Assembly (NCBI GenBank): GCA_964411925.1
Contig: CAYPNI010000005.1
Span: 1 to 62,802 of the forward strand
Direction of reading: 5' to 3'
DNA length: 62,802 nt
Source: an uncultured Nitrospirales bacterium
GTDB lineage: Bacteria; Hydrogenedentota; Hydrogenedentia; Hydrogenedentales; GCA-2746185
Part shown: piece by piece, positions 19,503-57,460 of the stretch
Numbering within the stretch: the stretch's first letter is position 1
Layout: the number at the start of each line of letters is the position of its first letter
The notes under the pieces: generated by a model
Database searches by the model: none
What the model was told of the DNA's origin: nothing
The model's input: the letters and a program-made list of their open reading frames with translations, nothing else
Position numbers and translations under genes: made by a program

Positions 19503-21584
19503 TCACTCCGGTATCGCGAAGATTTCGAAGGAATTAAATCGTAGCTCGGTTTCAGCATCGGCCGGGTCTATCCGAAGCGTCGCGGCGGGAGAGAGGTCCG
19601 GGAATGCAAACGAGAGGTAGTTCTCGCCGGCTTGCAGCTTCTGTGCGACGCTGTTTTTCTCGGAGTACGACTCTTCGTCCGCGCGTTTGTAGAAGACCTG
19701 GAACGAGGTCGGCGCGGCGCTCGTGATAATCGCCCTCAGAAAGAGGATTTCGCCTGGATTAACACTGAGATTGGGCGTGAAGAAGATCGGATCGGGGCCG
19801 GAGGAATCGAGGTATAGCGCATTGTCCGCCACGCGGAATTCGACGTAGATATTCCGCTGGAGTTGCGTCAGATCGGTCGAGGCATCGATCGAATAGACCA
19901 ACCGTCCGGCATCCTGGATGCGCTTGACGCGATCGCTGGGCCCCCACAGTTCCGATGCTCCGTCGCTCCAGACCATCTCCCACGCGCCGGCACGCCCCCG
20001 CGGATCGTTAATAACCGTGTGCAGCGTGCGGAAGCTTTCCCCGAACATCTCGGCGTACCCGTGATCGAAGAGGATGAAATCGGGATGGGTCTCTTCTATC
20101 ACACGGAGATGATCGGTCTCCCTGTGCCGAGCTTGAATCGCGACGAACTTACCCGCGTGCCCATAACTTAGGATTTCGGGTGTAGCGCCATACACGACCG
20201 GGTTGTCGTCGTCCTCAGCGAAAACGCGTTTCGCGGCGGCCGCACGGTAGTCCTTGTAGTTCACCCTTCGAATTTCATTCAGTTCGATTGCGGCACCCGC
20301 GATTAACGCAAGAACCACCGCAAAGATGGACCAATAGGCCCACGAGATGCGCTGGATTCGGAAGGAAACCAGCGAGCGGAGCATGAAGCCGATGGCGTAC
20401 GCGCCGGGCAGGGCGAGCGCCGGGGCGGCCGGCCAGACCTGGCGCTCCTGCACGGATATGCCCGGCAAAACCAATACGTACACGCCAATCCAGGACGCGA
20501 TCACGGCGGCGGCGACGCGGTCGCGCCGTCTGGCGAGGATTACCACGCCCAACGCCAGGGGCCAGAACCCGAGGATGTTGAAATCCTTGTCTTCCAGGAA
20601 TCGGTAGGTTACGAGATACACGCCTTCGAAGTAATTCGCGACGTATTGCCGGCGATTCTCCCAGATCACCGCGAGCGCGCTCTTCCCGGTTTTCACGGGC
20701 GAAGACGGATCCTGGGTGAATTCAAAGCGTCTTGCCCAGTCGTCCCCATCCGGAAACGGCCCCATCAGAATTCCGTCGTAGACGATGTACGTCGTGTACG
20801 AAGGCCTGAACGGTTCTACGCCGAGCTTGTCTCGCATAGACGCGGCGTTAGCGCTGGTATACGCCGCATTCCCCAGCGCGTACAGTGCGATCGCGATCAC
20901 GACGGCGGTCCACGTCAACGCGAGGCGACGGTGCGGCGGCCGCTGGGTTCCACGGAGACCAAAATGCGCCCACGTCAACGCCGCCGCGAGAAGGAGTGCA
21001 TGAAAAACCGCCGGACCGCGGATCGCCATGGCGATCGCCAGGGTCGGGATTCCGAGGATGAGCCACCACAGTCGCCCCTGTCGCCAGTACATGGCGATCA
21101 GGGACACTCCCACAATACTGAACAGAATAAACGCGCTTTCGCTCTCTGCCCGGAGTGTCTGATCGATGATGGATGAGGAGGTCGCGACGACGCCCGCCGC
21201 AGCCAACCGGTCGAATACGGTTCCGCCCATGGCGAATACGAGCAACGCCGCCGCAGGCACGATCAGGACGCTGCACACCATCGAGAGGGCGGCGGCCGTT
21301 TGCGCCCAGCCCTTCCCGGTGAATTCAACGAGCAACCCCAACGCGGTCGCAAGTCCGTATTGATTGACGCGGAGGGACAGTCTGGCTTCATTGGGAGTCC
21401 CTGTGAGATCGGTCCATGCTTTACTGAGGACGTACAAATCCCCGGTCACACCCACCGGATCGCTGTTTGCCCAGCGTTGGATCCGCGCGAAAACGGCAAA
21501 CACCAACAGCAGGGCCGCTAAAATCCAGATCAGGTAGATGGAGCTTCGTCGCAGCGCTTGCTCCCACGATCCCGCCAACTTCAT
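19503..21584 (-). CDS. GT-C-like multi-pass membrane glycosyltransferase with C-terminal periplasmic beta-sandwich
   Basis: About 11 TM segments, acidic residues in first loop (SDPVGVTGD), ESESAF ArnT-like motif; C-terminal LYLDSSGPDP...SEKNS...GEN...LRIDP domain. Confidence 0.55.
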   Translation of the reverse strand: MKLAGSWEQALRRSSIYLIWILAALLLVFAVFARIQRWANSDPVGVTGDLYVLSKAWTDLTGTPNEARLSLRVNQYGLATALGLLVEFTGKGWAQTAAALSMVCSVLIVPAAALLVFAMGGTVFDRLAAAGVVATSSSIIDQTLRAESESAFILFSIVGVSLIAMYWRQGRLWWLILGIPTLAIAMAIRGPAVFHALLLAAALTWAHFGLRGTQRPPHRRLALTWTAVVIAIALYALGNAAYTSANAASMRDKLGVEPFRPSYTTYIVYDGILMGPFPDGDDWARRFEFTQDPSSPVKTGKSALAVIWENRRQYVANYFEGVYLVTYRFLEDKDFNILGFWPLALGVVILARRRDRVAAAVIASWIGVYVLVLPGISVQERQVWPAAPALALPGAYAIGFMLRSLVSFRIQRISWAYWSIFAVVLALIAGAAIELNEIRRVNYKDYRAAAAKRVFAEDDDNPVVYGATPEILSYGHAGKFVAIQARHRETDHLRVIEETHPDFILFDHGYAEMFGESFRTLHTVINDPRGRAGAWEMVWSDGASELWGPSDRVKRIQDAGRLVYSIDASTDLTQLQRNIYVEFRVADNALYLDSSGPDPIFFTPNLSVNPGEILFLRAIITSAAPTSFQVFYKRADEESYSEKNSVAQKLQAGENYLSFAFPDLSPAATLRIDPADAETELRFNSFEIFAIPE

Positions 21585-21747: not shown

Positions 21748-23673
21748 TCATGGCTTGACGACAGTTATCGCCCGTGTCTCCTCAGCCAGTATCTGACCGG
21801 CGGCGTCAATCGCCCGAATTTTCACGTGAGCCGGCATCGATTGCGTGTCGATCTCGACCACGGAGTCGAATCCTGGCATGACGTCACGGTACTGGGGGAA
21901 ACTGCGGTAGACGTCGCCTCGGGAGAGCGGATATCGTGCGGTTGCAATCCGTGCGGCATCATCCCAAATCTCGACACTGGCAACGGAATGAGGTGACACT
22001 ACCCATCCCCTGGAGGATATCCGTCCGGAAGGCGTGGCTTCGACGGCCACGTTTATCAGCGTCGGATAGTCCTTCGAGATTGGGGAAATTGAGTGCTCCA
22101 GGGACTTATTGAAGAGGACGTTGGGTTTTCCTCCCGGATACTCCCCCGGTTCGACGATGCGCATCCGTCCCGCCGCGACATCGTCCCGGTCAATCCCGTC
22201 GAACTGATACTCGCTGGGTTCTCGAACATAGACTCTCTGCGTTCCCCGGCTAAACAGGTATCGCCGGGGGTGCCAACCCTGCTCGATCTTGAATTCGTAT
22301 CCTTGTTCAATGAAGTACAGCGGTAGCAGTTGGTAGAACGCCTTGAAGAGCCAGCTGGCCCCGGGTGCTTCCTTCGTGATGAACAGGAAATCGATTTCCT
22401 CGGACTCAACCAATTGCACGACGCGCCGCATGAATGCGGATCGCAGATACGGATCCATGGGTTTGTTGCTCTGCCTCACACTACGGTAGACGCTCAGGTA
22501 CTTTCCGTACTGCCGCATGTTGTCGTGTGTGTACACCGCCCGCGGACTGGACGTCACGCGTACGAATGGCGTCTTGGACGTCAATTCGATCGCCATGAAC
22601 AGATGGAACAGGCTGATCGCGCACAGGAAGACGGCGAGGGCGCCTGCTGCGAGGGGTCGATGCAGCGACCTTAGGTGCTCGACAAATTGAAGATGAAATA
22701 TCGGGGCCAGGACGAGGAACGGAAGCAAATACTTCGGGGACGTCAGGTCCCTGATTCCATAGAGCAAGAGCAGAATCGTTAGTCCGGTAATCACTGTTCC
22801 AACGGTTCGAAACCTCGCGGCTTGCCAGAGAAGGTAGACGCCATAGATCGCCAGCAGCGCCATCATCGGCAGAGGCATGGAGCTAAGGAGCATGTTCAGT
22901 CGCCAACGCCAGTCCTGCAGGCGATCTGCATACTGACCTTGAATGCGAATGATCTCCCACAGTTCGGCGAACGGAAACAGGCCCACGACCCATGCGAAGA
23001 AGAGCGTCCCGCAGACGCCGAGGACGAAAATCAATCCATTCGAGATTCTTCGGTCTGGAAATCCAGCGATCCTCCACAGGAGAAACGGAGCCCCAAGGGC
23101 AAAGTCGAACCGGAACAAGACACTTGCTGCGAACACCTCCGCCACCAGGACGACCGACATCGGCCTGAGACCGGATTCTCCGTTCCGCGGTCGCGACAGG
23201 AAGACCGCAAACAGAAACATGCACATTCCGTAAACTGACGAGTTTGGGTATAGCATGGTCATAATGACCTCTTGCTGGGAGGCCACAACGATCAGTCCTG
23301 CACCGACGAATACGAGACTATGCGTAATTCGATAGATGAAAGCGGCGTAGAGACAAATCGTCAATGCGCCAAACATCGCGGGGAGAAGATATAGCGCCGT
23401 GACGCTACCCGTTAGGTTGAAAACCCAGAAGTACAAGGCGTGCGTCAGCGGCTGGTGTGCGAAGTTGTATAGGGAGAAATCCCCTGTTCTGCCCGCCGGA
23501 AGATTGATGCCGCCGGCAATCAGTTCGAGCGCATCTTGCTCGTAGAAACCTCGGTCGCCGTACGTGGCCAACAGTACGAACGAAAACACGAACAGATGAC
23601 CATGGGAGATCAAAAGGACGCTGCGCCGCCTTGTTGTTGGCGCTTCGATGGCCGCAGTTGGCAACTGGTTCAT
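21748..23673 (-). CDS. GT-C-like multi-pass membrane protein with C-terminal Ig-like domain
   Basis: About 10 TM segments, EQD acidic motif after TM1, AHQPL loop, SPKYLLPF; C-terminal RGWVV...VEIWDD...RGDVYRSFPQY...PGF Ig-like module. Upstream ATG 23778 is an alternative start. Confidence 0.5.
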   Translation of the reverse strand: MNQLPTAAIEAPTTRRRSVLLISHGHLFVFSFVLLATYGDRGFYEQDALELIAGGINLPAGRTGDFSLYNFAHQPLTHALYFWVFNLTGSVTALYLLPAMFGALTICLYAAFIYRITHSLVFVGAGLIVVASQQEVIMTMLYPNSSVYGMCMFLFAVFLSRPRNGESGLRPMSVVLVAEVFAASVLFRFDFALGAPFLLWRIAGFPDRRISNGLIFVLGVCGTLFFAWVVGLFPFAELWEIIRIQGQYADRLQDWRWRLNMLLSSMPLPMMALLAIYGVYLLWQAARFRTVGTVITGLTILLLLYGIRDLTSPKYLLPFLVLAPIFHLQFVEHLRSLHRPLAAGALAVFLCAISLFHLFMAIELTSKTPFVRVTSSPRAVYTHDNMRQYGKYLSVYRSVRQSNKPMDPYLRSAFMRRVVQLVESEEIDFLFITKEAPGASWLFKAFYQLLPLYFIEQGYEFKIEQGWHPRRYLFSRGTQRVYVREPSEYQFDGIDRDDVAAGRMRIVEPGEYPGGKPNVLFNKSLEHSISPISKDYPTLINVAVEATPSGRISSRGWVVSPHSVASVEIWDDAARIATARYPLSRGDVYRSFPQYRDVMPGFDSVVEIDTQSMPAHVKIRAIDAAGQILAEETRAITVVKP

Positions 23674-23963
23674 TCGGTCGTCCGATACTGGTGCTCTGAA
23701 TCCGGTCGCGTCAGCGCCGTGGCGGGGGGCGCCATGGGGCTGAAAACGCCACGGGATTATGGCAAATGCGAGGTCCAATAGGACATTGGCTTTTGCGGCT
23801 CCCGTCGGACAATAACACCTATGGTTTCAGGCACTTAGGGTGGCCGATCCTCCGCCCCTCGAATTGATAATCGAAATTGGCTGTGACAAATCCAGCCGCT
23901 CCTGACACTAATACGACGCGGATCAACGCGCCGACCGTACACGGTCTGACATGAGGAGAAATC

Positions 23964-27303: not shown

Positions 27304-30294
27304 CTAGCTGATTCTGCATTCCGGCAACGCCTTGGCGAGTTCGGCGCGGACGTCGTCCCCGATCTGCGGGGGCAGCCAGATGCGCCGCGCATTCCTCAGC
27401 GCAGCGAGTTGCCGTACGCCGGCCGGCGTGATGTTCGTGTCGCGTAAATCAAGCGTGCGAAGCCCATCGAGATGCAGGATGTGAGCGACCTGGCTGTCGC
27501 CGATCGCCGCGGGACGCAGGTGCAGGCTCTGCAAATCGTTCGCGCTGAGCCGGGCAAGCGGCGACAAGTCGTCCTTCCACTCCGGGTAGACCACGAGCAT
27601 GAGCTCGCGGTTCGCCGGAACCTGCACCGCCCCGCGCGCAGGACCGAGCTCGACCCAGTTCCAGATGGGCAGGTCCCATGCCCGCACCATCAGCAGGCCC
27701 ATGGCGCGGTCCGGGAACTGCACGCTGCGCGCGCCGGGCGAAGCCGTGCGGGTCGCAGCAGTGCTCACGGCCGGCGCGGCGTCTATCCGGACGCTGGTGT
27801 TCGGCAGCGCGCGCGCAAGACGCGCCCGGGCGTCCCCGTCGAGTTGCGCTGGGAGAACGATATCGCGCAGGGACCGCAGGCGCATGAGCGTACGTATCGA
27901 AGTCGCCGAAATCGGCACGCGACGAAGATCCAGCGTGCGGAGTCCGGCGAGTCCGCCCAGATTCTCAAGTTGAACGTCGGTGACGGGAGATCCCGCGAGC
28001 GTCACCGACTGTAGATCGGCCGGATCGAGTGCTCGAAATGCCGACAGATCGTTCGCGGCCGCCGGATCGAGTTGGAGGTAAAGTTCTTTGGCGGCTTCGA
28101 TTGACACCGCGCCTCTCGCCGGTCCGAGATCGACCCAGTCCCACTGTTTGCTGTCCCAGTCCCGCACGAGGAGCTTGCCGAGCGACCGTCCCTCCGGAAA
28201 TTGAACGACGCGCGGACCCGGCGGCGAAGCAGCAGCGGGTTCGGCTGCAGCCGGCTGTTCGTCGTCCGGCAGGCGGAAGCCAAGCCGGTCATGAAGAATG
28301 CGCGCGATCTCGCCCGACATGCGCGTGATGTCGAATCCCTTCGCGGAGCGCGCCCGCGCGTTGTCGCCGAGCCGCTTGCGCAACGCGTCATCGTGCACGA
28401 GCCGGTTTACCGCCTGTGCGAATGCGCCCGCGTTCATCTCCTCCACGACGACGCCGCAATCGTCGCCGATGAACTCGTGCGCGCCCCCCGCGTCACGAAA
28501 CGCGATGACCGGACTGCCCAGGTACGCAGTTTCCATAACGACGAGAGGGAACGGGTCGTCGCGCGAGGTCATAGCCTCGATGTCGAACGCCGCGAGAAAC
28601 GGGAACGGATTGTCCTGCGGGCCCGGCGCGTGCACGCGATCGGCGATGCCTCGCCGGGCGGCTTCCTTGAGCAGGTCCTGGTGATTGGGACCATGTCCAA
28701 TCCACGCGAAGTGCACCGGGCGGGCCTTGTCTTCCGTCGCAAGAACCTGTTGCGCCATTTCAATGAACACGTCCCAGCCCTTGCGCTCATCGATTCGTCC
28801 GCAATTGCCCACGAGAATCGCGTGTTCGGGTACGCCCAACTGCTTGCGTGCCTCCGCGGCCGAGTTGTCGGAGACGCTGCGCCGCAATCGATCGAAATCG
28901 ATCGCGCCGTAGACCACTTCGACACGGTCGTCGGGGATTCCATGGTTCTTCACGAGGTTTTTCTTGACCGCCCCGGAACACGCGATGTGCAGAAACGACC
29001 TTTCGACGAGCGTCTTCCGCGCCGCGTCGTCGAGCATCGAGAGAAACCACTGCAATTCGTGGACGTGGACGACCACAGGCGCCTTGGACTTCAGGAACTC
29101 GATTACGTCGGCGTTCGACGTCGTGTTCGAATACACCACGTCCGGCGCCCATTCGGCGACGGCCCTGCGAATGGCGTCCTGGTGCGCGCCGGCGCGCTTG
29201 TTCTTCGGGTCCGGCCAAAACACGTCCGTCGGCGCGACGGCCTGGAAATCCGGCAGCATCGTGCCGTTCGGCTCGCGCACGATCACGCGGCAATTCCATC
29301 CGTAACGGTGCACGAACTCCTGAACGAGGCTCAGGAGCAGCACTTGCGCGCCCAGCCGGCCCACGTCGTGCGAGATGATGAGAATGCGCGGCGCGCCGTC
29401 GGCGGGGGCCGCCGGTGCATTCCCAAACAGGCCGGCGAAGTCGCACCGTTCGAACACGTCGAGCTTGCTGTTGATGCCCGCGTTGAAGATCCTTCGCCCG
29501 CGCGATTCGTACACCTGTCGCGCTTTCGCGTATCCCTCTTCCATGTAATCGACGACCGGCACGCCAATGACGTCGCCCACTCTGTAGTAGTCGTCTTTCA
29601 TGTGCAGGCCGCGAACAAGGTGGATGTTGTCTTCGGTGATGGTGATCTTGCACGGCGGAAACAGCCGTGGGAGTTCGCCGTAGTTGTGATCGATCCCGAT
29701 GACATACACGGGATCGCATCCGAGGTGAAACGCTAGCTGCAACCCGATGTAGGTCACCGTGCTCGCGAGATGCACCTGGTGCGGGAAATCCTCGGAGAAC
29801 TGCGGAAAGAGCGTTTGCAGGAACTGTGCGTCCAAGTTCCGCACGTTCATGAAGCAGGTTTCGTCGTCCGCGGGAAACGCGTACGCGTTGTGCAGGCCGC
29901 TGAGCTTTGTCGTTCCGTGAACCGTCGGAATGTCGTGCCGGCGCAGCTCCGTTTGCTCGATGTCTTCGAACAGCAGATACGAGACCTTCCAGCCCCACTC
30001 ATCAAAGTTGGTGTAGATGCCGTTGCAGCCGATCGTGATCTCGTCCTTCAACACGGAGAGATCCATCTGCTTGAGGCTCGGGCCGTTTCCCAGGACGAAG
30101 CAACGCCGGCCCTTGTACTTGTTCCGCCAGCTCTCGAGCCGGTCGCGGTAGCCCGGCACTCGGCGGACAATCGGCCGTAATCCGCGCCGCCCGAGCGCGA
30201 GCCGTGTGTGAAACCGGTAGCGGGCGAGAAGCAGGCGCAGATACCCCAGCGGGCGCTCGCTGCGCGGAAACGACTCAGTCCAGACGATGGGCAT
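27304..30294 (-). CDS. Multidomain glycosyltransferase: DUF115/Maf-like (MptE-like) + GT4 + two tandem LRR-containing modules
   Basis: RCFVLGNGPSL...IGCNGIY and VYVIGIDHNY (DUF115); HVHEL, GRIDERKG, TSRDDPFPLVVMETAYLGSPVIAF (GT4); duplicated C-terminal module with LRTLDLR LRR motifs. GAGG RBS before ATG 30294. Confidence 0.8.
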   Translation of the reverse strand: MPIVWTESFPRSERPLGYLRLLLARYRFHTRLALGRRGLRPIVRRVPGYRDRLESWRNKYKGRRCFVLGNGPSLKQMDLSVLKDEITIGCNGIYTNFDEWGWKVSYLLFEDIEQTELRRHDIPTVHGTTKLSGLHNAYAFPADDETCFMNVRNLDAQFLQTLFPQFSEDFPHQVHLASTVTYIGLQLAFHLGCDPVYVIGIDHNYGELPRLFPPCKITITEDNIHLVRGLHMKDDYYRVGDVIGVPVVDYMEEGYAKARQVYESRGRRIFNAGINSKLDVFERCDFAGLFGNAPAAPADGAPRILIISHDVGRLGAQVLLLSLVQEFVHRYGWNCRVIVREPNGTMLPDFQAVAPTDVFWPDPKNKRAGAHQDAIRRAVAEWAPDVVYSNTTSNADVIEFLKSKAPVVVHVHELQWFLSMLDDAARKTLVERSFLHIACSGAVKKNLVKNHGIPDDRVEVVYGAIDFDRLRRSVSDNSAAEARKQLGVPEHAILVGNCGRIDERKGWDVFIEMAQQVLATEDKARPVHFAWIGHGPNHQDLLKEAARRGIADRVHAPGPQDNPFPFLAAFDIEAMTSRDDPFPLVVMETAYLGSPVIAFRDAGGAHEFIGDDCGVVVEEMNAGAFAQAVNRLVHDDALRKRLGDNARARSAKGFDITRMSGEIARILHDRLGFRLPDDEQPAAAEPAAASPPGPRVVQFPEGRSLGKLLVRDWDSKQWDWVDLGPARGAVSIEAAKELYLQLDPAAANDLSAFRALDPADLQSVTLAGSPVTDVQLENLGGLAGLRTLDLRRVPISATSIRTLMRLRSLRDIVLPAQLDGDARARLARALPNTSVRIDAAPAVSTAATRTASPGARSVQFPDRAMGLLMVRAWDLPIWNWVELGPARGAVQVPANRELMLVVYPEWKDDLSPLARLSANDLQSLHLRPAAIGDSQVAHILHLDGLRTLDLRDTNITPAGVRQLAALRNARRIWLPPQIGDDVRAELAKALPECRIS

Positions 30295-30366
30295 GCCCGA
30301 CCTCAGCGACGTCCAGGGCCACGGCAACTCTGGCGCGGGCCCTCGGCCGTTCTCGCCGGGAAACCG

Positions 30367-32490
30367 TCAATTCGCGGACTCCCAGTTCCGGTTTCGTCCC
30401 CAGATGATGAGGCTGTACGGATCCTGCACGTGCGTGATCGGCCGCGGCCCCGCCGATTCGCCGAAATTGAACGCCTTCTGCAGGTGGTAGTCGAAACCGG
30501 CACCCTCGAGGATTCCCAGAATTTTTACGAGCCGTCCTTCTTCCATGCCCGCGCCATGGTGATACTCGATGAACAGGCTGCGTACGCGCTTGAGTTGGTT
30601 TCGGCTCTCCTCGAGCACCGCGTCTTCCGCGCCCTCGATGTCGAGCTTGAGGAAGTCCACGGGCCGATCGAGATAGTTGCTGAGTGTCCTCTTCTCGACT
30701 TTGATCTCGCTCAGCGTGTCGCCCATCTCGTGCCGGCGCTTGGTCAGCGTGTTCGCAAGCGGATACTCTTCGGAAACGTAAAACACGGCCTCGCCCTCGT
30801 CACCGGACAGTGCGTAAGGCAGCACTTCGACATCGGCGAATTCGTTGCGTTTCGCGTTTTCCTCGGACAATTTGCGCAGCGCGGGTACCGGCTCGAACGC
30901 CGTGATCCGGGCGCCGGGATAGAGCGTCTTGAAGTAGTAGATCGCCATGCCGAAATTCGCACCGCAATCGAGCACGTACGGCGACTCGGAGTCGCTCTCG
31001 AAGTAGTACTCCTCGTTCAAGAGGATCTCGTGGATGAGCGTCCAGAGCGAGAAATCGTCCGTGTACCGCATTTCGCCGTGGGCGAGCATCGCGACCTTGT
31101 CCTTAGCGATGACGCGCAACAGGGCTTCGCGCACGTCTCTCGGGCGATTGAGCTTCCACGCGGTCTCTTCCAGGAGTTCTGCGAATTGGGGGCGGTTCGT
31201 GTTCACCACCGGCGCGATTCGTTGCCACGTGTCGCGAAACGCCTGGATCGCGCGTACGCGGTCGCTGTCCGGGGAGTCCGCGAGCAGCCGTTTGGTCGTG
31301 CCTCGTCCGCGGAGAAAACCGTGCACGAAACGGTCGCTCGCCTGCGCGAGCGCGATGAAATCCGGCTGGGCGGACAGCGCCTCGATCGCGACGCCGTGGT
31401 TGGCGATGTTGAGCAGCATCCGCGGCGACCGCCGAAACGCGTCCCGGATGTCGGAGTTCGACGCCCAGCGCTCGAACAACGAATCGTTATGGGCGGTGTG
31501 CTGGATGACGCTCTCCAGAGAATTGAGACGTCGAAGCACGTCCGGCGTGCGTGCGATCGTCTCGATCGTGCGCCCGTGGCTGAGGATTCTTCCGAGGATG
31601 ACTTGATCGGCGAGCGTCTTCTCGAAGACGCGCTCGTGCCCGAGCAGTTTCGTCAGCAGTGTGTCATCGGCCAGCAGCGTCTGAAACGCGCGCCCGTGCG
31701 ACAACACACGCACCAGCGTCGGTGCGTCGCTCATGAGCTTGTCAAACACACGCTGGTTGCCCAGAGTCTTTGTCAGCAGCGTATCGTCCGTGGTCAGTTT
31801 CTGAAACGCCGCTTCCGCCGAAAGCAGACGCAGGAGGAACTCGCCGTTGCGCAGAATCGCGTCGAACGTCTCCTTCTTGCCCAAGAGTGCTGCGAGTTGT
31901 TGGTGATCGCCGATCAGCCGGTTGAGCACCTCGGGATGGGAGACGACACGCTCCAGCAGCCGATCGTCCGCGAGCAGCCGATCGATGGCGAGTTCGTGGC
32001 CGAGTACGCGATTGAGAAACTCGTCGTCGCCGAGCAGGTCTTCGAGCAACCGCTCGTTCTGAAGGAACAGCCGCTTTACCAGGCCCGGAGTCGCGATGTG
32101 ATCGAGGAAGTCCCGGTCTGCGGTCAGTCCCCGCCAAACGCCGCGGTTGTTCTTCACTGAATCGATCACGGCCGGGTGGCTCTCGGCCTGCTTGAGCGCG
32201 GAATGGTTGCCGAGGGCGTAGCTCACGAATTCCTTACGAAGCAGGATCGTGTCGGCGAATTGCGGATCGCCCAGAAGCCGCTGTAGGAGCGAATCGTCCG
32301 TCAGCATGGCGCGAAACGTAAGAAACACGGCCTCATTCTGCCGCAGGCGCATCGGCAGAAGTTCACTCTCGAGGATGCGGATCAGGATGTGCTCGTCGCA
32401 GCCGATGCGGACCGCGGCGCGCGACAGGAACCCGTTGGACGCGATGGCGCGCCCGAGCCGTTCGCGCGTTTTTCGGAGTGGATGTGCCAT
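30367..32490 (-). CDS. FkbM-family methyltransferase with long N-terminal 10-aa helical repeat array
   Basis: C-terminal VLDCGANFG, AFEP, LPYAL, VDFLKLDIEGAE; N-terminal units such as LLGDDEFLNR/VLGHELAIDR/LLADDRLLER. ATG 32490 follows the wzt stop. Confidence 0.85.
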   Translation of the reverse strand: MAHPLRKTRERLGRAIASNGFLSRAAVRIGCDEHILIRILESELLPMRLRQNEAVFLTFRAMLTDDSLLQRLLGDPQFADTILLRKEFVSYALGNHSALKQAESHPAVIDSVKNNRGVWRGLTADRDFLDHIATPGLVKRLFLQNERLLEDLLGDDEFLNRVLGHELAIDRLLADDRLLERVVSHPEVLNRLIGDHQQLAALLGKKETFDAILRNGEFLLRLLSAEAAFQKLTTDDTLLTKTLGNQRVFDKLMSDAPTLVRVLSHGRAFQTLLADDTLLTKLLGHERVFEKTLADQVILGRILSHGRTIETIARTPDVLRRLNSLESVIQHTAHNDSLFERWASNSDIRDAFRRSPRMLLNIANHGVAIEALSAQPDFIALAQASDRFVHGFLRGRGTTKRLLADSPDSDRVRAIQAFRDTWQRIAPVVNTNRPQFAELLEETAWKLNRPRDVREALLRVIAKDKVAMLAHGEMRYTDDFSLWTLIHEILLNEEYYFESDSESPYVLDCGANFGMAIYYFKTLYPGARITAFEPVPALRKLSEENAKRNEFADVEVLPYALSGDEGEAVFYVSEEYPLANTLTKRRHEMGDTLSEIKVEKRTLSNYLDRPVDFLKLDIEGAEDAVLEESRNQLKRVRSLFIEYHHGAGMEEGRLVKILGILEGAGFDYHLQKAFNFGESAGPRPITHVQDPYSLIIWGRNRNWESAN
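31276..32307 (-). repeat. About 34 tandem 10-aa (30-nt) coding repeats with 20- and 40-aa super-periods
   Basis: Consensus h-h-small-(D/H/N)-x-x-h-h-x-(R/K). A 120-nt DNA echo is visible: 31651-31690 vs 31771-31810 (GTCAGCAG...TC...CTGAAACGC). Confidence 0.85.
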
Positions 32491-32516: not shown

Positions 32517-33818
32517 TTACATGATCAACTGCTTCTGCATGGGCGCCTCGACCGTGTACTCGCAACGCAGGTCGACGAGTTCCCACGTCAGCTTGTTGGG
32601 CGCGGTAACCACGAACTGATGGACGATGCCCCGCCACAAGTAACTCTTCCCTTCGTGGATCGGCATCACTAGAACGTATTCGCCGGGATTCAGATTGAAA
32701 TCCGGAATGCGCACCGTGCACCGCACGGTACCTTCGTGGATGTCCTTGAGCAGGTCGCCGTTCAGCGTCGATACGGCCGCGATGCGCAGTCCGTCCTTGC
32801 TGTAGATCACCAGGCTCACGTTCAGATCGGTGACCCGTTTGAGCGGCGTGAACGAGTAGCGCAGCTCCACTTCGTCGTGCACGCGCACCGAGGTCGTCTC
32901 GTTGCCGTCGACCATGAACGAGAACTCGAGATCCGTGACCCGGTCGAAGTCGGTGTACATGACGTCGTAAATCGATTCCGAAGCCGCCAGCGATGCCTTC
33001 TTGCGCATCGCTTCCGTGTTCGATTCCTGCAACACCTTGAGCCGTTTGAGTTGGTCCTCGGAATCTTTATTGAGGTAGTCGAGGTAGTTCTTGACCACGT
33101 CTGCCGCCTTGCCGATCTCGACGCACCGGCCCTTCTCCAACCACAGCGCCCGCTCGCAAATCTGCACGATGTTGGTGTGGTTATGCGAGACCATGACGAA
33201 GGCAACGCCGGCTTGTTTCAGCTCGTGCAGCTTCGCGAAGCATTTGTTCTGGAACGCAAAATCGCCGACGGCGAGTATCTCGTCGATGAGCAGGATGTCC
33301 GGTTTGAGGCTGATCGCCACAGAGAACCCCAGGCGCGCGCTCATGCCGGAGCTGTACGTGCCTACGGGGCTGTCGATGGCGTCCTGCAGCTCGGAGAATT
33401 CGATGATCTCCGCAACGAGATCGTCGATCGCCCCGCGCGTGAGGCCCATCAACGACGCTGAGTTATAGATGTTGTCGCGGCCGGACAACGCCATGTTGAA
33501 CCCCGCGGAGAGGTTGATCAACGCCTGAACCCGCCCGTCCATGATAATCGTGCCACGGTCCGGTTTGAGCAGTCCGTTCATCATCTTGAGCATCGTCGTC
33601 TTGCCCGAACCGTTGCGGCCGATGAGTGCGAACGAGTCGCCCTTCTCCAGGTGAAACGACACGTCATCGACCGCAAAGAACTCGTCCTTGCGCAGATTGC
33701 CACGCGCGACTTTGCCGAAGATTTCGCGGATCAAGTCGGCCGCGCCGTAGTTCAGGTGCGCGTGAGGATTGCGCGAGAAGCGCTTGCTGACGTGTTCGAC
33801 AATGACGACGGGTTTCAT
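32517..33818 (-). CDS. wzt: Polysaccharide export ABC transporter ATP-binding protein with C-terminal Wzt_C-like domain
   Basis: FFAVDDVSF, GRNGSGKTT (Walker A), YSSGMSARLGF (signature), LLIDEILAVGD (Walker B), VSHN; C-terminal beta domain ending in LNPGEY. Confidence 0.93.
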   Translation of the reverse strand: MKPVVIVEHVSKRFSRNPHAHLNYGAADLIREIFGKVARGNLRKDEFFAVDDVSFHLEKGDSFALIGRNGSGKTTMLKMMNGLLKPDRGTIIMDGRVQALINLSAGFNMALSGRDNIYNSASLMGLTRGAIDDLVAEIIEFSELQDAIDSPVGTYSSGMSARLGFSVAISLKPDILLIDEILAVGDFAFQNKCFAKLHELKQAGVAFVMVSHNHTNIVQICERALWLEKGRCVEIGKAADVVKNYLDYLNKDSEDQLKRLKVLQESNTEAMRKKASLAASESIYDVMYTDFDRVTDLEFSFMVDGNETTSVRVHDEVELRYSFTPLKRVTDLNVSLVIYSKDGLRIAAVSTLNGDLLKDIHEGTVRCTVRIPDFNLNPGEYVLVMPIHEGKSYLWRGIVHQFVVTAPNKLTWELVDLRCEYTVEAPMQKQLIM

Positions 33819-33826
33819 CGCGGACG

Positions 33827-34663
33827 TCAATTCCTGTGCGAGAGAATCGGCACCGACAGGTGAAAGGTGATCGACCCCACAATGAATATCAGGGCGAACA
33901 CCGCGGCGCGAATCGCGAGTCCCGGGGCCTGGTCGAGCACGCCCGAGTTGGCGAGTTTCCGCAGGCTGTCCATCGTGACGGCGATCGGGTTGATGGCGTT
34001 CATCCAGACCCAGGGGATCGGCCACATCACCGGGGAGAGGTAGCGCAACGGCATCACCACCAGCCGAATGGCCCGCTGGACGTCGTTGTAAATCACGCTG
34101 AACGGGGCCAAGAGCACGCCGATCGCCAGGCCCGGCAGCGCCAGCAGGGGAAAGAGGGCGACAAACGCGAGAAACCCGGGGATGGAAAACGATTCACGCA
34201 ATATCAACAGCGAGAAGCCGAGCAGGATGCCGATGCGGAAAATGGAGAAGAAACCGACGCGATAGATACACGAAAGCACCAGGGCCTCCGGCGGAATGCG
34301 CAACTGCGAGATCAGACTCTGCGAATTTCGAATCAATGCGACCGAGAACAGGATGCTTTCGATAAACGTCTGGTAGAGCAGCACGCCGTAGATAACGTAG
34401 AGCGCCATCGGCATGCCGAGATTGCCGACATCGATGATTCCGCGGCGCATCAAGAAGTAGAAAATGCCGGCGAGGACGAGCGGGTCCGCGAAATCCCAGA
34501 AAACGCCGAACGCGGACCGCGTGTATTCCGCCTTGATGTCCTTGATGAATAGCCGCCACGCCATGTAGCGGGAGGATACGAAACCCTTGAAGACGGTCCG
34601 GAACAGGCGTCGGCCGTGCCGTACCTGGGACTCGGCCGTGTAAACGTGGTGGGTACCGGTCAT
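33827..34663 (-). CDS. wzm: Polysaccharide export ABC transporter permease
   Basis: DIKAEYTRSAFGVFWDFADPL, PPEALVLS, YNDVQR...RYLSPVMWP, INPIA; six TM segments; directly upstream of wzt. Confidence 0.92.
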   Translation of the reverse strand: MTGTHHVYTAESQVRHGRRLFRTVFKGFVSSRYMAWRLFIKDIKAEYTRSAFGVFWDFADPLVLAGIFYFLMRRGIIDVGNLGMPMALYVIYGVLLYQTFIESILFSVALIRNSQSLISQLRIPPEALVLSCIYRVGFFSIFRIGILLGFSLLILRESFSIPGFLAFVALFPLLALPGLAIGVLLAPFSVIYNDVQRAIRLVVMPLRYLSPVMWPIPWVWMNAINPIAVTMDSLRKLANSGVLDQAPGLAIRAAVFALIFIVGSITFHLSVPILSHRN

Positions 34664-34716: not shown

Positions 34717-34725
34717 AGCTTACCA
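34717..34725 (-). promoter_or_regulatory. Possible extended -10 promoter (TGgTAAGCT) for wzm-wzt
   Basis: Minus strand reads TTGACGGAAAAATGGTAAGCT about 55 nt upstream of the wzm ATG; TGn plus TAnnnT match, but the TTGACG is at a non-canonical 9-bp spacing. Confidence 0.3.
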
Positions 34726-34826
34726 TTTTTCCGTCAAGTATTTCAGCATGGAACACGTGTGGCGGCCGGTTCGCTTCCAGCCGAGATAGGCGGTCGCACG
34801 GTCCTCAGCGTGCCCGTGCAACGTCG

Positions 34827-36788
34827 TCAACGCGTGTCGCGATTCGCGTCGATCTGCGAGCTGGTGACTACGAGCGTCGGCAGATCGATGCCTCGCGTCG
34901 TGACCGTGAACTGGCCGGCACCGTCCCGGGCCAGCTGTACGCCGCCGGGTCCGGCCTCGTACGTGTGTGTATGAAGGACGTGCGTGCCGTCTGCGGAATT
35001 GAACGCGATCGTCCAGGGCTCGGGGATGCTGAGCGAGAGTATCGTCACACGGTCCGTGTGTTCGCGGTCGAGTTCCTTGACTTCGCCGACGGCGATGAAC
35101 TGGCGCGGCTCGGCGGGCTCCTGCGCGTATCGCAAATGAAAGAACCGCCGGCCGGGGTCCGGGTTCTCCTTCAGGAAGCCGTGCAGGAACATCCACTGGC
35201 CGAATACCCAGATCCGCCGCCCCGTCTTCGCCCGGATGTACTTGGCCCAGTACGTTTCGCCGATGTACGACTCCTTGATGAGGTGCCCGCCCTGAAAGTC
35301 CCAGAGGTGGTAGTAGGGGTTGTATACAGCCCCCCAGAGGTCCGGCGAGAAAATGACTTCGCCCTCGGGGATACTCTGGAAGACCTCCGATTCCAGGAAT
35401 CGATCCATCGCGACCCATTTCTGATGCTGCATGCCCAGCATTTTGGTGGTGTAGTGATTGGAAAAGTCCGTGATGACGCTGACGAACGCCACAGCGAATG
35501 CGGCAGTCGTAAGCGCAAGCGCGCGAACGATTCGGCTCGTGTGGTGCGCGAGATGATGCATCGGCGCCCATAAGACCGAAGCCAGCAACAGCGCGACGCC
35601 GTACCCCGCGAGGTAGGTCATGTGCGTGCCGATCCATTCACGGTTCAGCGCGTAGTTCTGGTAGAGCAGACTGAAACTCAGAAGCGCGTTCGGTATCAGC
35701 GTGAGGAGAATGGCAATCGACACGGTGGCCATGAGCATGCCACGGGGCATCGGCTGGCTCCGTCGCAGTATCAGCACGCAGAGTCCGGCGAACACCATCG
35801 CGCGAAGGGCCCACGCGGCGCGCATGTCGCCCCGGATGTACGAAGCATCCGAGGAGCGGGCGGCGAACCCCGGCGCATAGTGGTCGTAGATCGTTCGAAT
35901 CTTGTCGTCGAAGAAGAAGTACGCCGGGAAGGCCGAGCGCGTCAAAACGAAAATCGACTCTGCGTACCGCGGAACACTCAATGCATCCGATTCGAAGGTG
36001 TTGCCCGCGTATTGGGATGGATGCTCCGCACGGTAGGCGAGCGTCGCGCCGACGTAGGCGACGACGATCAGGGTGAAGGGCGCGAGGGGCAGGAACATTT
36101 TCGGGCGGAAGCCCTCCGCCTTGCGGCGCACGTTCGCCACGAGCAACGCGACATGCACGAGCGCGTACAGCGAGAAGGTCTCGTGCACGGGTACGGCGAG
36201 CGCGAAAAACGCGGCGCTCGGAACGAGCCACGGGACGCGTCTGGACTGTAAGTATTCGTGGAAGCAGAACAGCGAGAGCGCTACGCACAGCATCCCCACA
36301 TGCTTGTACACGAAGTAGCCGGTTAACGCGGAATGGTTGCCGCCGAACTGCAACGACAACAGGTACATCATCAGCGCGAACTGCGCAAAGGAACCCGCGC
36401 GCGTGATCCGGGCGATAACCGCGTAGAACACGAGCGCGTTCAACACGAGCGCACTGATCGTGACCACCTTGTAGTAGACGAAGCCCTGGCTGAGAAACGG
36501 CAAAATCCACAGCACGCCGTCGTAGTAGTAGTGCCAGCGGCCCTGAAGCTGGGCGAGTTTGGGCAGCCATGCGAAATAGCTCGGCTCGGTCCAATACCGA
36601 ATCGCCATGAACATGCTGTCGTGATCGGCGAAGCCGGTCTGAAGCAGCGGGTAATACGTCAGGACGAAGAGCGCAATGAAGCCAGGAATGGCGAGTTGAC
36701 CGAGACGATCGGTCGGGACGGGTTCGGCCCGGGTCGGTGCCGAGTGCAATTCCGCTTGATGACGGGGATCGGGGGGCTCGAGGGTCAT
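34827..36788 (-). CDS. GT-C-like (GtrII-like) multi-pass membrane protein with periplasmic C-terminal domain
   Basis: About 11 TM segments; DHD acidic motif after TM1, QGRW loop, HET motif; long soluble C-terminus. Alternative GTG start at 36806. Confidence 0.55.
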   Translation of the reverse strand: MTLEPPDPRHQAELHSAPTRAEPVPTDRLGQLAIPGFIALFVLTYYPLLQTGFADHDSMFMAIRYWTEPSYFAWLPKLAQLQGRWHYYYDGVLWILPFLSQGFVYYKVVTISALVLNALVFYAVIARITRAGSFAQFALMMYLLSLQFGGNHSALTGYFVYKHVGMLCVALSLFCFHEYLQSRRVPWLVPSAAFFALAVPVHETFSLYALVHVALLVANVRRKAEGFRPKMFLPLAPFTLIVVAYVGATLAYRAEHPSQYAGNTFESDALSVPRYAESIFVLTRSAFPAYFFFDDKIRTIYDHYAPGFAARSSDASYIRGDMRAAWALRAMVFAGLCVLILRRSQPMPRGMLMATVSIAILLTLIPNALLSFSLLYQNYALNREWIGTHMTYLAGYGVALLLASVLWAPMHHLAHHTSRIVRALALTTAAFAVAFVSVITDFSNHYTTKMLGMQHQKWVAMDRFLESEVFQSIPEGEVIFSPDLWGAVYNPYYHLWDFQGGHLIKESYIGETYWAKYIRAKTGRRIWVFGQWMFLHGFLKENPDPGRRFFHLRYAQEPAEPRQFIAVGEVKELDREHTDRVTILSLSIPEPWTIAFNSADGTHVLHTHTYEAGPGGVQLARDGAGQFTVTTRGIDLPTLVVTSSQIDANRDTR

Positions 36789-36990
36789 CGCGTGGGGCTG
36801 CCCCACTCAGTACTCACGTTGAATCCTTGGATTGCAGCATACGCGAAATCGGGTTTTCAAGGGTCCGGGGGCCGCCCGGCTTACGACTCGCCGGCCGCCG
36901 AGTTCGCGTTCGCGCGACACGGTTGAAGTGGCGAGAGTGTACAGTAGTCTCGTCGGATCGACGGACCCAAGAAGAGGGTAGGCGTTTCCC

Positions 36991-53681: not shown

Positions 53682-53865
53682 GAAACCAGTATGCCATGCG
53701 TGGGCTGGGATTGGGAGCGTTGGCCGGCCGATGAGCCCCCGCCTCGAGGATCCGTCGCGCGGTTCGAACACCCGGCCACGCGCATTCCCGGCGCGCTGTA
53801 CAACGCGCGAATTTCCCCGTAGGATGGTTCGCTGGGCGCGAATTCGACCCGAAGGGAGGTCTCCA

Positions 53866-54705
53866 GTGCTGGGCAAACGCGAGCACGCGGCGGCGTTACT
53901 CCTCTTCGCGTTGCTGATGACGTCGGTGCCGATGGGCCTCGCGTCCGCGCAGACTCCTGGGTTTCCACAAGGCGGGCCCACGCCGCCAACGTCTTCGGCG
54001 GGTGGCGCGGATCCCGCCGCCGAGATGTTGCGCCGGCAAATGGAACTGCAGGAGAAGTTGGTGCTCGAGCGCATGCGACGGGATGCCGAGAACAAGAAAG
54101 CCGAGCCAGCCGCCGAAGAAGCCAAAGAACCGGAGAAGCCCGCTCAGACTGCGCCTGAAGAAGCGCCTAAGCCCAAGGAAGCGCCGCCGCCGGCGCCGAA
54201 GCCCGAGGGACCGACGCTCAACGAGACGCTGAAGTGGATCAAAAGCCGGTGCCGGCCCGTGGACGATGCCACGGAACCCAACTGGGCGAAGCCGCATGTG
54301 ACGGAACTCGTCGAAAAGCTTTCGTACCTCAAGTCGTACACAGGCAAGAGCTGCGTCGTGCAACAGGACCAAATCGGCGAGAACACGGTCAACGTTTACA
54401 CGTTTGAATTCGAACTGCCTCAGTTAGACGCGTCTGCCGTGAAGATCGCGCAGGTCGACGCGTCGCCGGATGCGCCGTGGACGGTCGCTATCGAAACCCG
54501 GTCAGCCGAGGCCACGATCAAACAATCAGCGCGTTTCAGCTTCGCCGACGCGAGCGAGGACGAACAGCCGGCTGCAACGGTATCCATGGTCGCGTCCGTT
54601 GTGGTGGCGCAAGTTCAGGACAAGGATTCCGCGGATCGGCTGGCCGATGCCTGGCGGCACGCGATTACGCTCGCGGGGGGCGCGGCGAACCGGGAACTGT
54701 TCTGA
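53866..54705 (+). CDS. Secreted hypothetical protein with coiled coil and Pro/Glu/Lys-rich linker
   Basis: GGGAGG RBS before GTG 53866; signal peptide ending ASA-Q; PEK-rich linker followed by a TLNETLKWI globular domain. Confidence 0.6.
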   Translation: MLGKREHAAALLLFALLMTSVPMGLASAQTPGFPQGGPTPPTSSAGGADPAAEMLRRQMELQEKLVLERMRRDAENKKAEPAAEEAKEPEKPAQTAPEEAPKPKEAPPPAPKPEGPTLNETLKWIKSRCRPVDDATEPNWAKPHVTELVEKLSYLKSYTGKSCVVQQDQIGENTVNVYTFEFELPQLDASAVKIAQVDASPDAPWTVAIETRSAEATIKQSARFSFADASEDEQPAATVSMVASVVVAQVQDKDSADRLADAWRHAITLAGGAANRELF

Positions 54706-57249: not shown

Positions 57250-57460
57250 GATCGTTTCCCGGCTCGCGATACGCTGTCCGAACGTGCGCAATCCGCACCC
57301 GGGCAGAGTCTAGCAAACGATGGGGGAGGGGAACGCCCCTGACCCGGGCGGGCGTGGCGGCGCAGTCCTCGGGCCCCCGGGGTCGTCCCGGACCGCTGAA
57401 GTACGAGGTCCGGCGTCAAGCCCCGCACACAAAAACGCAGGCGGCGCCGCAGCCGGAGTC

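What the first reader, a model, noticed from the sequence alone, without database searches (positions are those of the whole stretch)
30367..32490. FkbM methyltransferase with ~34 tandem 10-aa helical repeats next to wzt: candidate new chain-length ruler
Seen: strict 10-residue periodicity over about 344 aa (LLGDDEFLNR/VLGHELAIDR/LLADDRLLER/VVSHPEVLNR/.../LTTDDTLLTK/TLGNQRVFDK/LMSDAPTLVR/VLSHGRAFQT/LLADDTLLTK/LLGHERVFEK/TLADQVILGR/ILSHGRTIET). Position 4 often alternates D and H/N, and a 120-nt DNA duplication signal suggests recent expansion. The gene lies between wzt and the multidomain transferase. Established: in E. coli O9a-type ABC systems WbdD caps the chain by methylation and its coiled coil acts as a molecular ruler, and Wzt_C recognises the cap. 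Inference: the same logic with a non-heptad helical solenoid whose unit number could tune polysaccharide length; I know of no described ruler of this repeat type.
Basis: partly seen in the sequence, partly recalled or inferred. Interest (0 to 1): 0.82.

Follow-up and report, generated by a model that had tools for sequence, protein, structure and literature searches.

The report
Helical-repeat spacer on a glycan-capping methyltransferase
A predicted sugar-chain-capping methyltransferase sits next to a polysaccharide export pump and carries about 38 short helical repeats where known enzymes of this kind carry a coiled-coil "ruler", so it may measure polysaccharide length with a different kind of rod.

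Summary
Window 30367-32490 (minus strand) encodes a 707-aa protein with a C-terminal FkbM methyltransferase. Residues ~32-411 form one unbroken 10-residue register (autocorrelation z = 9-10). The evolutionary unit is a 20-aa pair, hLxDDxLLxR-hLxHGRxFEx. AlphaFold2 predicts one 7-9-residue helix per 10-mer. The nearest solved fold is an alpha-helical superhelix from a phage receptor-binding protein.

The gene lies in the order wzm, wzt (with Wzt_C), this gene, then an MptE-like/GT4 transferase. That order recurs in relatives.

The family is rare: 43 hits among 1.84 billion representative proteins. Its N-terminal extension runs from ~300 to ~935 aa. Indels between relatives are multiples of 20 aa, and both ends stay conserved. 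This fits an open solenoid of variable length.

I found no heptad signal in the cluster, although published terminator systems treat a coiled coil as a hallmark.

"Recent expansion" in this gene is not supported: the 120-nt copies are only 57% identical.

Best reading: a chain-terminating O-methyltransferase with an alpha-solenoid spacer. The ruler function is plausible but untested. I rate it a new variant of a known kind.

The parts
30367..32490 (-). Whole gene: repeat-bearing FkbM methyltransferase, 707 aa plus stop codon
   Evidence: ORF and translation. The ATG at 32490 lies 26 nt downstream of the wzt stop. The 65%-identical orthologue P0002 sits in the same position in L001.
32401..32490 (-). 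N-terminal basic segment, aa 1-30 (net charge +6). It is a candidate membrane-proximal anchor or partner-docking peptide. This role is inferred, not shown.
   Evidence: A conserved motif of the type 'R/K...h..RhAhD(E)..L..hL.DP.F' heads most family members. Net charge of the first 30 residues is +2 to +9 in the 12 members checked, +3 or more in all but one. Helical hydrophobic moment is 0.26-0.51.
31258..32397 (-). Repeat array, aa 32-411: about 38 ten-residue helix units, equal to about 19 twenty-residue units (consensus LLADDxLLxR-iLSHGRaFEk). Predicted to be an alpha-solenoid.
   Evidence: Autocorrelation z = 9-10. Single register with no indels. One dominant 20-aa phase with 14 units above 3 bits between aa 72 and 391. 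AlphaFold2 predicts one 7-9-residue helix per 10-mer in two independent runs. Pro and Gly concentrate at positions 3 and 5 of the 10-mer.
31051..31257 (-). Non-repeat helical linker, aa 412-480, conserved across the family
   Evidence: Family alignments show conserved columns: R411, A414, W422, L458, I461, L469 and G472 are invariant among the four sequences of A1, and L469 is nearly invariant across the 19 of A3. This is the best-predicted stretch outside the mid-array, with pLDDT 81-87.
30370..31050 (-). FkbM-type SAM-dependent methyltransferase domain, aa 481-707
   Evidence: PF05050 covers aa 508-668 and TIGR01444 covers aa 506-644. Invariant motifs in 19 sequences are D508-x-G510...G514, F532-E533-P534 and D617-x-E619-G620-x-E622. 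Foldseek matches class I methyltransferases.
32517..33818 (-). wzt: ABC-transporter ATPase with a C-terminal carbohydrate-binding module (Wzt_C at about 32571-32930)
   Evidence: ABC_tran E 3e-19 and Wzt_C E 5e-11. The Wzt C-terminal end is 65% identical to the fragment upstream of the 30%-identical methyltransferase P0003 in L004.
33827..34663 (-). wzm: ABC-2 permease
   Evidence: PF01061. Same gene order in L001, L006, L085.
27304..30327 (-). Multidomain transferase: MptE-like domain, GT4 domain, and two C-terminal LRR-like modules. Candidate polymerase. The real start is probably the ATG near 30294.
   Evidence: Pfam hits. Orthologues with the same architecture follow the methyltransferase in L001 and L005. 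Sequence.

Best explanation
The gene encodes the chain-terminating O-methyltransferase of an ABC-transporter-dependent polysaccharide pathway of the O-antigen type.

1. The MptE-like/GT4 protein polymerises the glycan on a lipid carrier at the inner face of the membrane.
2. The FkbM domain methylates the non-reducing end.
3. The Wzt_C module of the transporter recognises the capped end and allows export.

The 380-residue N-terminal region is an open-ended alpha-solenoid built from 20-aa two-helix units. It holds the methyltransferase away from the conserved basic N-terminus, which I propose docks at the membrane or on the polymerase. Only chains long enough to span the rod would then be capped. 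The rod would therefore play the part that the coiled coil plays in WbdD and WbbB, with length adjustable in whole 20-aa units.

**Shown:** domain composition, periodicity, gene order, family-wide length variation in 20-aa steps, and predicted one-helix-per-repeat structure.

**Inferred:** terminal position of the methyl group, rod shape and rigidity, the anchoring role of the N-terminus, and dependence of chain length on rod length.
For: **Catalytic domain and context**
- The FkbM domain has intact SAM and family motifs.
- wzt with Wzt_C lies directly upstream in the window and in L001, L004 (fragment), L005, L006, L085 and L087. That is 7 of 11 repeat-bearing loci examined.
- An MptE-like transferase is nearby in 8 of those 11.
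- In published systems a CBM on Wzt marks export that depends on a terminal cap, and the terminator carries the ruler (PMC11231755).

**Solenoid signature**
- The 10/20-aa register is strict over hundreds of residues in every family member.
- The N-terminal extension ranges from 298 to about 935 aa.
- Indels between relatives are exact multiples of 20 aa: 60, 180 and 100 aa for L005 versus P0006, and 20 + 20 aa for the window versus P0002. Both flanks stay 54-74% identical.
- L005 shows DNA tandem duplication with periods of 60 and 180 nt.

**Structure**
- AlphaFold2 gives 35-38 short helices, one per repeat.
- Foldseek returns only alpha-solenoids. The best is the CDHS-1 Gp22 superhelix (E 2e-5, TMq 0.43). 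That structure is built of 5-14-residue helices joined by 1-3-residue loops.
- Viral-library hits are a repeat-containing capsid protein and tail fibres.

**No alternative ruler seen**
- No cluster protein shows a marked heptad signal. Power at period 3.5 is 0.0 in the repeat region, against 45.8 at period 5 and 19.8 at period 3.33.

**Shared module**
- In L006 the large glycosyltransferase P0023 carries the same N-terminal module and about 260 aa of the same repeats. This fits the N-terminal end acting as a shared docking site.
Against: - There are no experimental data for any member of the family.
- AlphaFold2 confidence is only moderate (pLDDT 50-87, pTM 0.39-0.50). I could not obtain coordinates, so rod length, straightness and oligomeric state are unknown.
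- FkbM enzymes can also methylate internal sugars.
- Four of 11 repeat-bearing loci show no wzt next to the gene, though several of those contigs are short. The relative P0004, whose N-terminus lacks the canonical repeat, lies by T2SS genes rather than wzt.
- Length variation is also expected for a scaffold that has no measuring role.
- The amphipathic character of the N-terminus is modest.
- My heptad test is a crude Fourier scan, not a calibrated coiled-coil predictor.
Confidence: 0.45

Rival explanations
1. Scaffold, not ruler. The solenoid is a docking platform that assembles the methyltransferase with the polymerase, the transporter or itself. Chain length would be set by other means, such as enzyme stoichiometry or kinetics, and repeat number would drift without functional consequence.
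For: - Alpha-solenoids such as ARM, HEAT and PUF are typical protein-binding scaffolds, and they are the remaining Foldseek hits.
- The polymerase carries LRR-like protein-interaction modules.
- P0023 shares the repeat module with the methyltransferase in L006.
- In Klebsiella O2a, chain length depends on the stoichiometry of transporter to biosynthesis complex.
Against: - A binding scaffold with specific partners would be expected to keep a fixed number of units. Here the number varies about four-fold while the ends are conserved.
- The presence of Wzt_C argues for a cap-and-export checkpoint of the kind that has so far always come with a ruler.
Confidence: 0.3
2. Ligand-binding groove. The repeats resemble STI1/DP-type short helices and form a groove. 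The groove binds a hydrophobic or polymeric ligand, either the polyprenol carrier or the growing glycan, and presents it to the methyltransferase.
For: - The repeats give weak Pfam hits to the ubiquilin STI1-like family PF23195 (E 0.03 for the window, 6e-4 for P0003).
- Related 10-aa repeat proteins P0017 and P0022 hit STI1-HOP_DP and XPC-binding.
- Conserved polar residues (D4, D/E5, R16, E19) recur on every unit.
Against: - The hits are below Pfam thresholds.
- Known STI1/DP domains are compact bundles of 5-6 helices, not arrays of 22-86 helices.
- The conserved D/N/S/H at positions 4 and 14, followed by P or G, looks like helix N-capping, which is a structural feature rather than a binding feature.
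Confidence: 0.12
3. Not a terminator. The enzyme methylates internal residues or another substrate, and the location next to wzt is incidental.
For: - FkbM-family enzymes have varied substrates.
- FkbM and MptE/Maf-like genes also occur in flagellin glycosylation islands (papers listed).
- P0004 and some other loci lack an adjacent wzt.
Against: - The wzt(Wzt_C)-methyltransferase adjacency recurs across distant lineages: Sumerlaeia and Nitrospinaceae MAGs, soil metagenomes, and this probably planctomycetal window.
- The Wzt CBM end stays 65% identical where the methyltransferase has diverged to 30%.
Confidence: 0.1

Closest known systems
WbdD of E. coli O9a/O8 and Klebsiella O3/O5 (terminating methyltransferase or kinase-methyltransferase with a coiled-coil ruler)
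   Same: - It is a separate terminator protein, encoded beside a Wzm/Wzt transporter whose Wzt carries a cap-recognising CBM.
- The catalytic domain sits at one end and a long helical spacer in the middle. The other end could serve for membrane or polymerase docking.
- The modification is methylation.
   Different: - The spacer is a 10/20-aa short-helix repeat predicted to be an alpha-solenoid, not a heptad coiled coil.
- The order is reversed: spacer N-terminal, catalytic domain C-terminal.
- The methyltransferase belongs to the FkbM family and there is no kinase.
- Oligomeric state is unknown. A solenoid could work as a monomer, whereas a coiled coil needs oligomerisation.
- I detected no sequence similarity to WbdD.
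WbbB (Klebsiella O12 / Raoultella) and the Klebsiella O4 and O7 terminator proteins
   Same: A terminator module is separated from the polymerase modules by an extended helical element, and export is gated by the CBM. The O4 terminator also has a TPR-like helical bundle before its coiled coil, so helical repeats have a precedent in this protein class.
   Different: - All of those still rely on a coiled coil.
- Their terminating chemistry is beta-Kdo or methyl-phosphate.
- In WbbB and in the O7 protein the polymerase modules are fused to the terminator.
Gp22 receptor-binding protein of C. difficile phage CDHS-1 (PDB 7qlr)
   Same: It is the best structural match (Foldseek E 2e-5, TMq 0.43). It is a superhelix of many short helices (5-14 residues) joined by loops of 1-3 residues.
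   Different: - Sequence identity is only 11%.
- It has no strict 10/20-aa sequence repeat.
- It is L-shaped and dimeric with an inserted hairpin.
- Its function, phage adsorption, is unrelated.
STI1/DP-type short-helix motifs (Hop DP domains, the ubiquilin STI1 region, the XPC-binding domain)
   Same: They share a sequence pattern of about 10-residue amphipathic helices started by D/N-P-type caps. Weak Pfam hits link the two.
   Different: - Those are compact 5-6-helix domains that bind hydrophobic clients.
- Here there are 22-86 helices in a strict register.
- The hits fall below the gathering thresholds.

Membership tests
FkbM methyltransferase family (PF05050 / TIGR01444) | Match to the family HMM above the curated cut-off | tested here: met
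   PF05050 scores 70.1 bits against a cut-off of 22.7. TIGR01444 scores 94 bits against a cut-off of 37.7.
FkbM methyltransferase family (PF05050 / TIGR01444) | Intact SAM-binding glycine-rich motif and the family's DIEGxE block | tested here: met
   LDCGANFG (D508, G510, G514), FEP (532-534) and LDIEGAE (D617, E619, G620, E622) are invariant in the 19-sequence alignment.
WbdD/WbbB-type chain terminator with molecular ruler | Encoded with a Wzm/Wzt transporter whose Wzt carries a C-terminal carbohydrate-binding module | tested here: met
   Wzt_C lies directly upstream in the window and in 6 further loci.
WbdD/WbbB-type chain terminator with molecular ruler | Extended coiled coil (heptad periodicity) between the catalytic domain and the membrane/polymerase end | tested here: not met
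   Hydrophobicity power at period 3.5 is 0.0 in the spacer, while periods 5, 3.33 and 10 dominate. Pro/Gly or D-P breaks occur every 10 residues. AlphaFold2 gives 7-9-residue helices, not one long helix.
WbdD/WbbB-type chain terminator with molecular ruler | Membrane-associating amphipathic helix and polymerase-recruitment site at the end opposite the catalytic domain | tested here: inconclusive
   The N-terminal segment is conserved and basic (+2 to +9) with a moderate hydrophobic moment. No binding test was possible.
WbdD/WbbB-type chain terminator with molecular ruler | The terminal residue of the glycan is modified, and spacer length determines modal chain length | not testable with these tools
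   This needs glycan chemistry and spacer-length mutants.
Open-ended alpha-solenoid repeat proteins | Tandem helical units in a constant register, with unit number free to vary between homologues | tested here: met
   A single phase holds over 200-650 aa in each protein. Between 4 and 27 units score above 3 bits per protein. The N-terminal extension ranges from about 300 to about 935 aa. Indels are multiples of 20 aa. Helices are predicted, not solved, and Foldseek hits are all solenoids.
STI1/DP-like domains (PF17830, PF23195) | Match to the family HMM above the gathering score | tested here: not met
   PF23195 scores 14.5 bits (E 0.03) for the window repeats and 20 bits for P0003, against a cut-off of 27.

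The most novel reading that the evidence does not exclude
A previously undescribed type of molecular ruler for polysaccharide chain length. It would be a possibly monomeric alpha-solenoid rod whose length changes in 20-aa two-helix steps. By my estimate from typical solenoid geometry, each step adds on the order of a nanometre or less. Nature offers a ready-made series, with about 4 to 27 clearly scoring units per protein and N-terminal extensions from about 300 to about 935 aa. In at least one lineage (L006) the polymerase and the terminator each carry such a rod of different length on a shared N-terminal docking module. The difference between the two rods could then set the distance between the polymerising and capping sites.
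Probability: 0.35. Interest if true: 0.85.

Novelty: new variant of a known kind. Interest (0 to 1): 0.7.

Why it matters
Chain-length control in ABC-transporter-dependent glycan assembly is currently explained by coiled-coil rulers. A 2024 study calls the coiled coil a characteristic marker of the strategy.

A terminator that uses a different rod would matter in three ways:
- It would show the ruler principle to be independent of the coiled-coil fold.
- It would mean that genome searches which use coiled coils as the marker miss such systems.
- It would supply a natural, modular spacer in 20-aa units, useful for testing how spacer length maps to polymer length and for glyco-engineering defined chain lengths.

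The repeat itself has no Pfam family and no solved relative, so it is also a new sequence family of alpha-solenoid. The family is confined to poorly studied phyla: Sumerlaeia and Nitrospinaceae MAGs, and probably Planctomycetota for this window.

Tried and rejected
- **DNA-level repeats in the window gene.** Tandem Repeats Finder found none. Seed-based repeats were only short, weak matches. The 120-nt copies are 57% identical. I rejected recent expansion or slippage in this gene.
- **Word-indexed homologue search.** The full protein returned only 3 relatives. A repeat with a 19-sequence profile returned fewer and was a wasted search. The exhaustive profile search and the genome scan were what revealed the family.
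- **Foldseek with the full-length model.** It was dominated by the methyltransferase domain, so I re-modelled the repeat region alone.
- **PDB sequence searches.** Neither the repeat profile nor the methyltransferase domain gave a significant hit.
- **Continuous 10/3 coiled coil or membrane-lying amphipathic helix.** Rejected because of the Pro/Gly/D-P breaks every 10 residues and the predicted short helices.
- **Pentapeptide-repeat beta-helix.** Considered because period 5 is the strongest hydrophobic harmonic. Rejected because the motif does not fit and the prediction is all-helical.
- **A second repeat-bearing ORF in the loci.** Only L006 has one.
- **Primary papers on the rulers.** Hagelueken 2015 and Williams 2017 are not held. 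Statements about them rest on the summary in PMC11231755.
- **Model coordinates.** These are not exposed, so I could not measure rod length or curvature.
Full report
**1. The observation**

The finding's coordinates match a minus-strand gene, 30367-32490, of 707 codons. Its ATG lies 26 nt after the stop codon of the upstream wzt. Pfam places an FkbM methyltransferase domain at aa 508-668 (E 3e-19), and NCBIfam TIGR01444 agrees (E 1e-26).

The N-terminal 480 residues show substitution-matrix autocorrelation peaks at every multiple of 10 residues. The z-scores are 9.3, 9.0, 6.9, 10.6, 7.6 and 9.7 for lags 10 to 60, against 300 shuffles. The catalytic half shows nothing comparable.

Written in rows of ten, one register runs without a single insertion or deletion from about aa 22-32 to about aa 411. 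Hydrophobicity power sits at periods 5, 3.33 and 10, with values of 45.8, 19.8 and 7.6. It is zero at the heptad period of 3.5. The periodicity is therefore real, far beyond chance, and not a coiled coil.

**2. The true unit is 20 residues**

Ten-mers alternate between a 'D type' (h-L-x-D-D-x-L-L-x-R) and an 'H type' (h-L-S-H-G-R-x-F-E-x). A 20-column scoring matrix finds one dominant phase in each protein, with the 10-shifted phase a distant second.

Across 240 units from 19 proteins the consensus is I/L, L, A/S, D/N, D/E/P, x, L/F, L, x, R/K, L/I, L, S/A, D/H/N, P/G/E, R, A/V/T, F/L/I, E/D, K/R. In the window protein, Pro and Gly fall almost only at positions 3 and 5 of each 10-mer. This is where a helix would break and be N-capped.

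**3. No recent expansion in this gene**

Tandem Repeats Finder reports nothing in the gene, and seed-based repeat search gives only weak short matches. The array here is old.

**4. Gene context**

On the same strand and in order lie:
- wzm (33827-34663, ABC-2 permease);
- wzt (32517-33818, ABC ATPase with a C-terminal Wzt_C carbohydrate-binding module);
- the repeat methyltransferase;
- a roughly 1000-aa protein with an MptE-like domain, a GT4 glycosyltransferase and two C-terminal LRR-like modules (27304-30327).

Further along are a GT4, a WbsX-type glycosyltransferase and a sugar-nucleotide epimerase/dehydratase. Elsewhere the window carries the PSD/PSCyt and DUF1552 pair and large kinase-WD40/TPR proteins. 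By my knowledge of where these families were defined, this points to Planctomycetota or a relative. That assignment is an inference.

**5. The family**

The word-indexed search found only three relatives.
- P0002 is 65% identical and 657 aa long. It comes from a soil metagenome and sits in the same wzm-wzt(Wzt_C)-methyltransferase-MptE/GT4 order.
- P0003 is 30% identical and 771 aa long. The gene fragment upstream of it is 65% identical to the end of the window's Wzt CBM.
- P0004 has a divergent N-terminus and is not beside wzt.

A scan of one genome per species found full-length relatives in two Sumerlaeia MAGs and a Nitrospinaceae MAG. These are L005 (1158 aa), L007 (about 1025 aa) and L006 (876 aa).

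An exhaustive HMM search with a 40-residue unit profile, run against 1.84 billion representative proteins, gave only 43 hits at E <= 1e-3. Of the 25 I read, about 20 have the same architecture of repeats, linker and FkbM domain, with total lengths of 522-1039 aa. The repeat is therefore rare and almost always tied to this methyltransferase.

Among 11 repeat-bearing loci examined, wzt with Wzt_C lies directly upstream in 7. An MptE-like transferase is nearby in 8.

**6. Length variation**

The segment before the methyltransferase ranges from 298 aa to about 935 aa. The 10-aa phase stays coherent within almost every protein.

Between the two Sumerlaeia-type proteins L005 and P0006, the N-terminal 290 aa are 54% identical and the C-terminal 355 aa are 61% identical. 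The difference of 340 aa lies wholly inside the array, as gaps of 60, 180 and 100 aa. The window protein and P0002 differ by two 20-aa gaps.

In L005 the DNA still shows tandem periodicity, with 60 nt x 14.5 copies and 180 nt x 2.5 copies at 87% identity. Arrays in this family therefore do grow by unit duplication. A fold that tolerates a four-fold change in unit number with conserved ends must be open-ended, meaning a solenoid whose length scales with unit number. This is the strongest sequence-based argument for an elongated spacer.

**7. Structure prediction**

I ran two AlphaFold2 jobs. One used the full protein with 4 sequences. The other used aa 52-411 with a 13-row in-phase alignment. 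Both predict one helix of 7-9 residues per 10-mer, joined by 1-3 residues, giving 35-38 helices. Confidence is moderate: pLDDT 50-87, best at aa 190-300, with pTM 0.39 and 0.50.

Foldseek against the PDB with the repeat model returns only alpha-solenoids. The top hit is the receptor-binding protein Gp22 of phage CDHS-1 (7qlr, E 2e-5, TMq 0.43). ARM, HEAT and PUF proteins and designed repeat proteins follow at TM 0.2-0.3. The Gp22 paper describes a right-handed superhelix with three short helices per turn, helices of 5-14 residues and loops of 1-3 residues. This matches the local pattern predicted here.

The viral library gives a repeat-containing capsid protein and tail fibres. No PDB chain is similar in sequence. 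From typical solenoid geometry I estimate roughly 12-18 nm for 38 helices. That figure is my estimate, not a tool result.

**8. Mechanism**

Published work on these pathways is summarised in PMC11231755. It shows that a CBM on Wzt recognises a terminal cap, that only capped chains are exported, and that the capping enzyme sits at the far end of a coiled coil which acts as a ruler. [quoted passage not shown]

The window has the CBM-bearing Wzt and one candidate capping enzyme. No cluster protein shows a marked heptad signal (a crude test). The parsimonious reading is that the FkbM domain is the terminator and that the solenoid replaces the coiled coil.

The family's conserved, positively charged N-terminal segment is a candidate for the membrane or polymerase docking end. 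That would make the arrangement a mirror image of WbdD. In L006 the large glycosyltransferase P0023 begins with the same N-terminal module, about 50% identical over about 70 aa, followed by about 260 aa of the same repeats. This fits a shared docking module, and it is the only such case among the loci scanned.

**9. Rivals**

- The solenoid may be a scaffold with no measuring role.
- It may be an STI1-like groove for a hydrophobic or glycan ligand. The weak Pfam hits to UBQLN1/STI1 families fall below threshold.
- The enzyme may methylate internal residues.

None of these is excluded. The ruler function itself has no direct evidence.

**10. Verdict**

I judge this a new variant of a known kind: a chain terminator with a spacer, where the spacer is of a new type. 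My confidence is about 0.45 in the full ruler mechanism. It is higher, about 0.75 each, for 'terminating methyltransferase of a Wzm/Wzt pathway' and for 'open alpha-solenoid'.

Noticed in passing
window 27304-30327 (-): After its GT4 domain, the MptE-like/GT4 transferase has Pro/Ala-rich linkers and two copies of a roughly 130-aa LRR-like module ('VQFPxxxxGxLxVRxWD...LRTLDLR...'). The L005 orthologue has the same LRR hits, and the L001 orthologue has a similar length. LRR-like modules on a cytoplasmic glycan polymerase are unusual, and they may be the partner site for the terminator.
   Followed up: partly
L006 12468-15932 (= P0023): A 1154-aa glycosyltransferase in the Nitrospinaceae locus starts with the same N-terminal module and about 260 aa of the same 10/20-aa repeats as the methyltransferase two genes upstream. 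It is the only locus with two repeat-bearing proteins.
   Followed up: partly
P0017, P0018, P0019/P0030, P0022 (hits): Unrelated proteins carry long runs of about 10-residue short-helix repeats. P0017 has about 40 'NPxxFxxIR' units and hits the STI1-HOP_DP and XPC-binding families. P0018 is a large repeat-rich protein. This suggests a wider, largely unannotated class of 10-residue helical solenoids.
   Followed up: partly
P0005 (1007 aa): This family member has a second FkbM-type methyltransferase domain after the first (two Methyltransf_21 stretches). That would allow a doubly methylated cap.
   Followed up: no
L085 and L089: Family loci carry DHQ-synthase-like, SDR and CTP_transf_3 (CMP-sugar synthetase family) genes beside MptE-like transferases. 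This hints that the polymers contain an ulosonic or nonulosonic-acid-type sugar.
   Followed up: no
L007 11222-12709: A Wzy_C (O-antigen-ligase-type) gene directly follows the repeat methyltransferase in one Sumerlaeia MAG. This fits ligation of the product to a lipid or protein acceptor.
   Followed up: no
window 34720-36806 (-): Upstream of wzm, the gene call is ambiguous. A 659-aa ORF (34827-36806) overlaps two ORFs in another frame (34720-35637 and 35638-36594). None has a Pfam or NCBIfam hit. L001 has a 594-aa protein with no Pfam hit in the equivalent place.
   Followed up: partly
window 50362-54125 (-), 1937-5902 (+), 54715-57291 (-): A DUF1552 gene sits with a PSD2-5/PSCyt3 gene, a pair typical of Planctomycetota. 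Two large Ser/Thr kinases are fused to WD40 or TPR arrays. These suggest the taxonomic origin of the window.
   Followed up: no
window 19503-21584 (-) and 21748-23778 (-): Two ORFs of 693 and 676 aa lie on the same strand as the glycan cluster and have no Pfam match.
   Followed up: no
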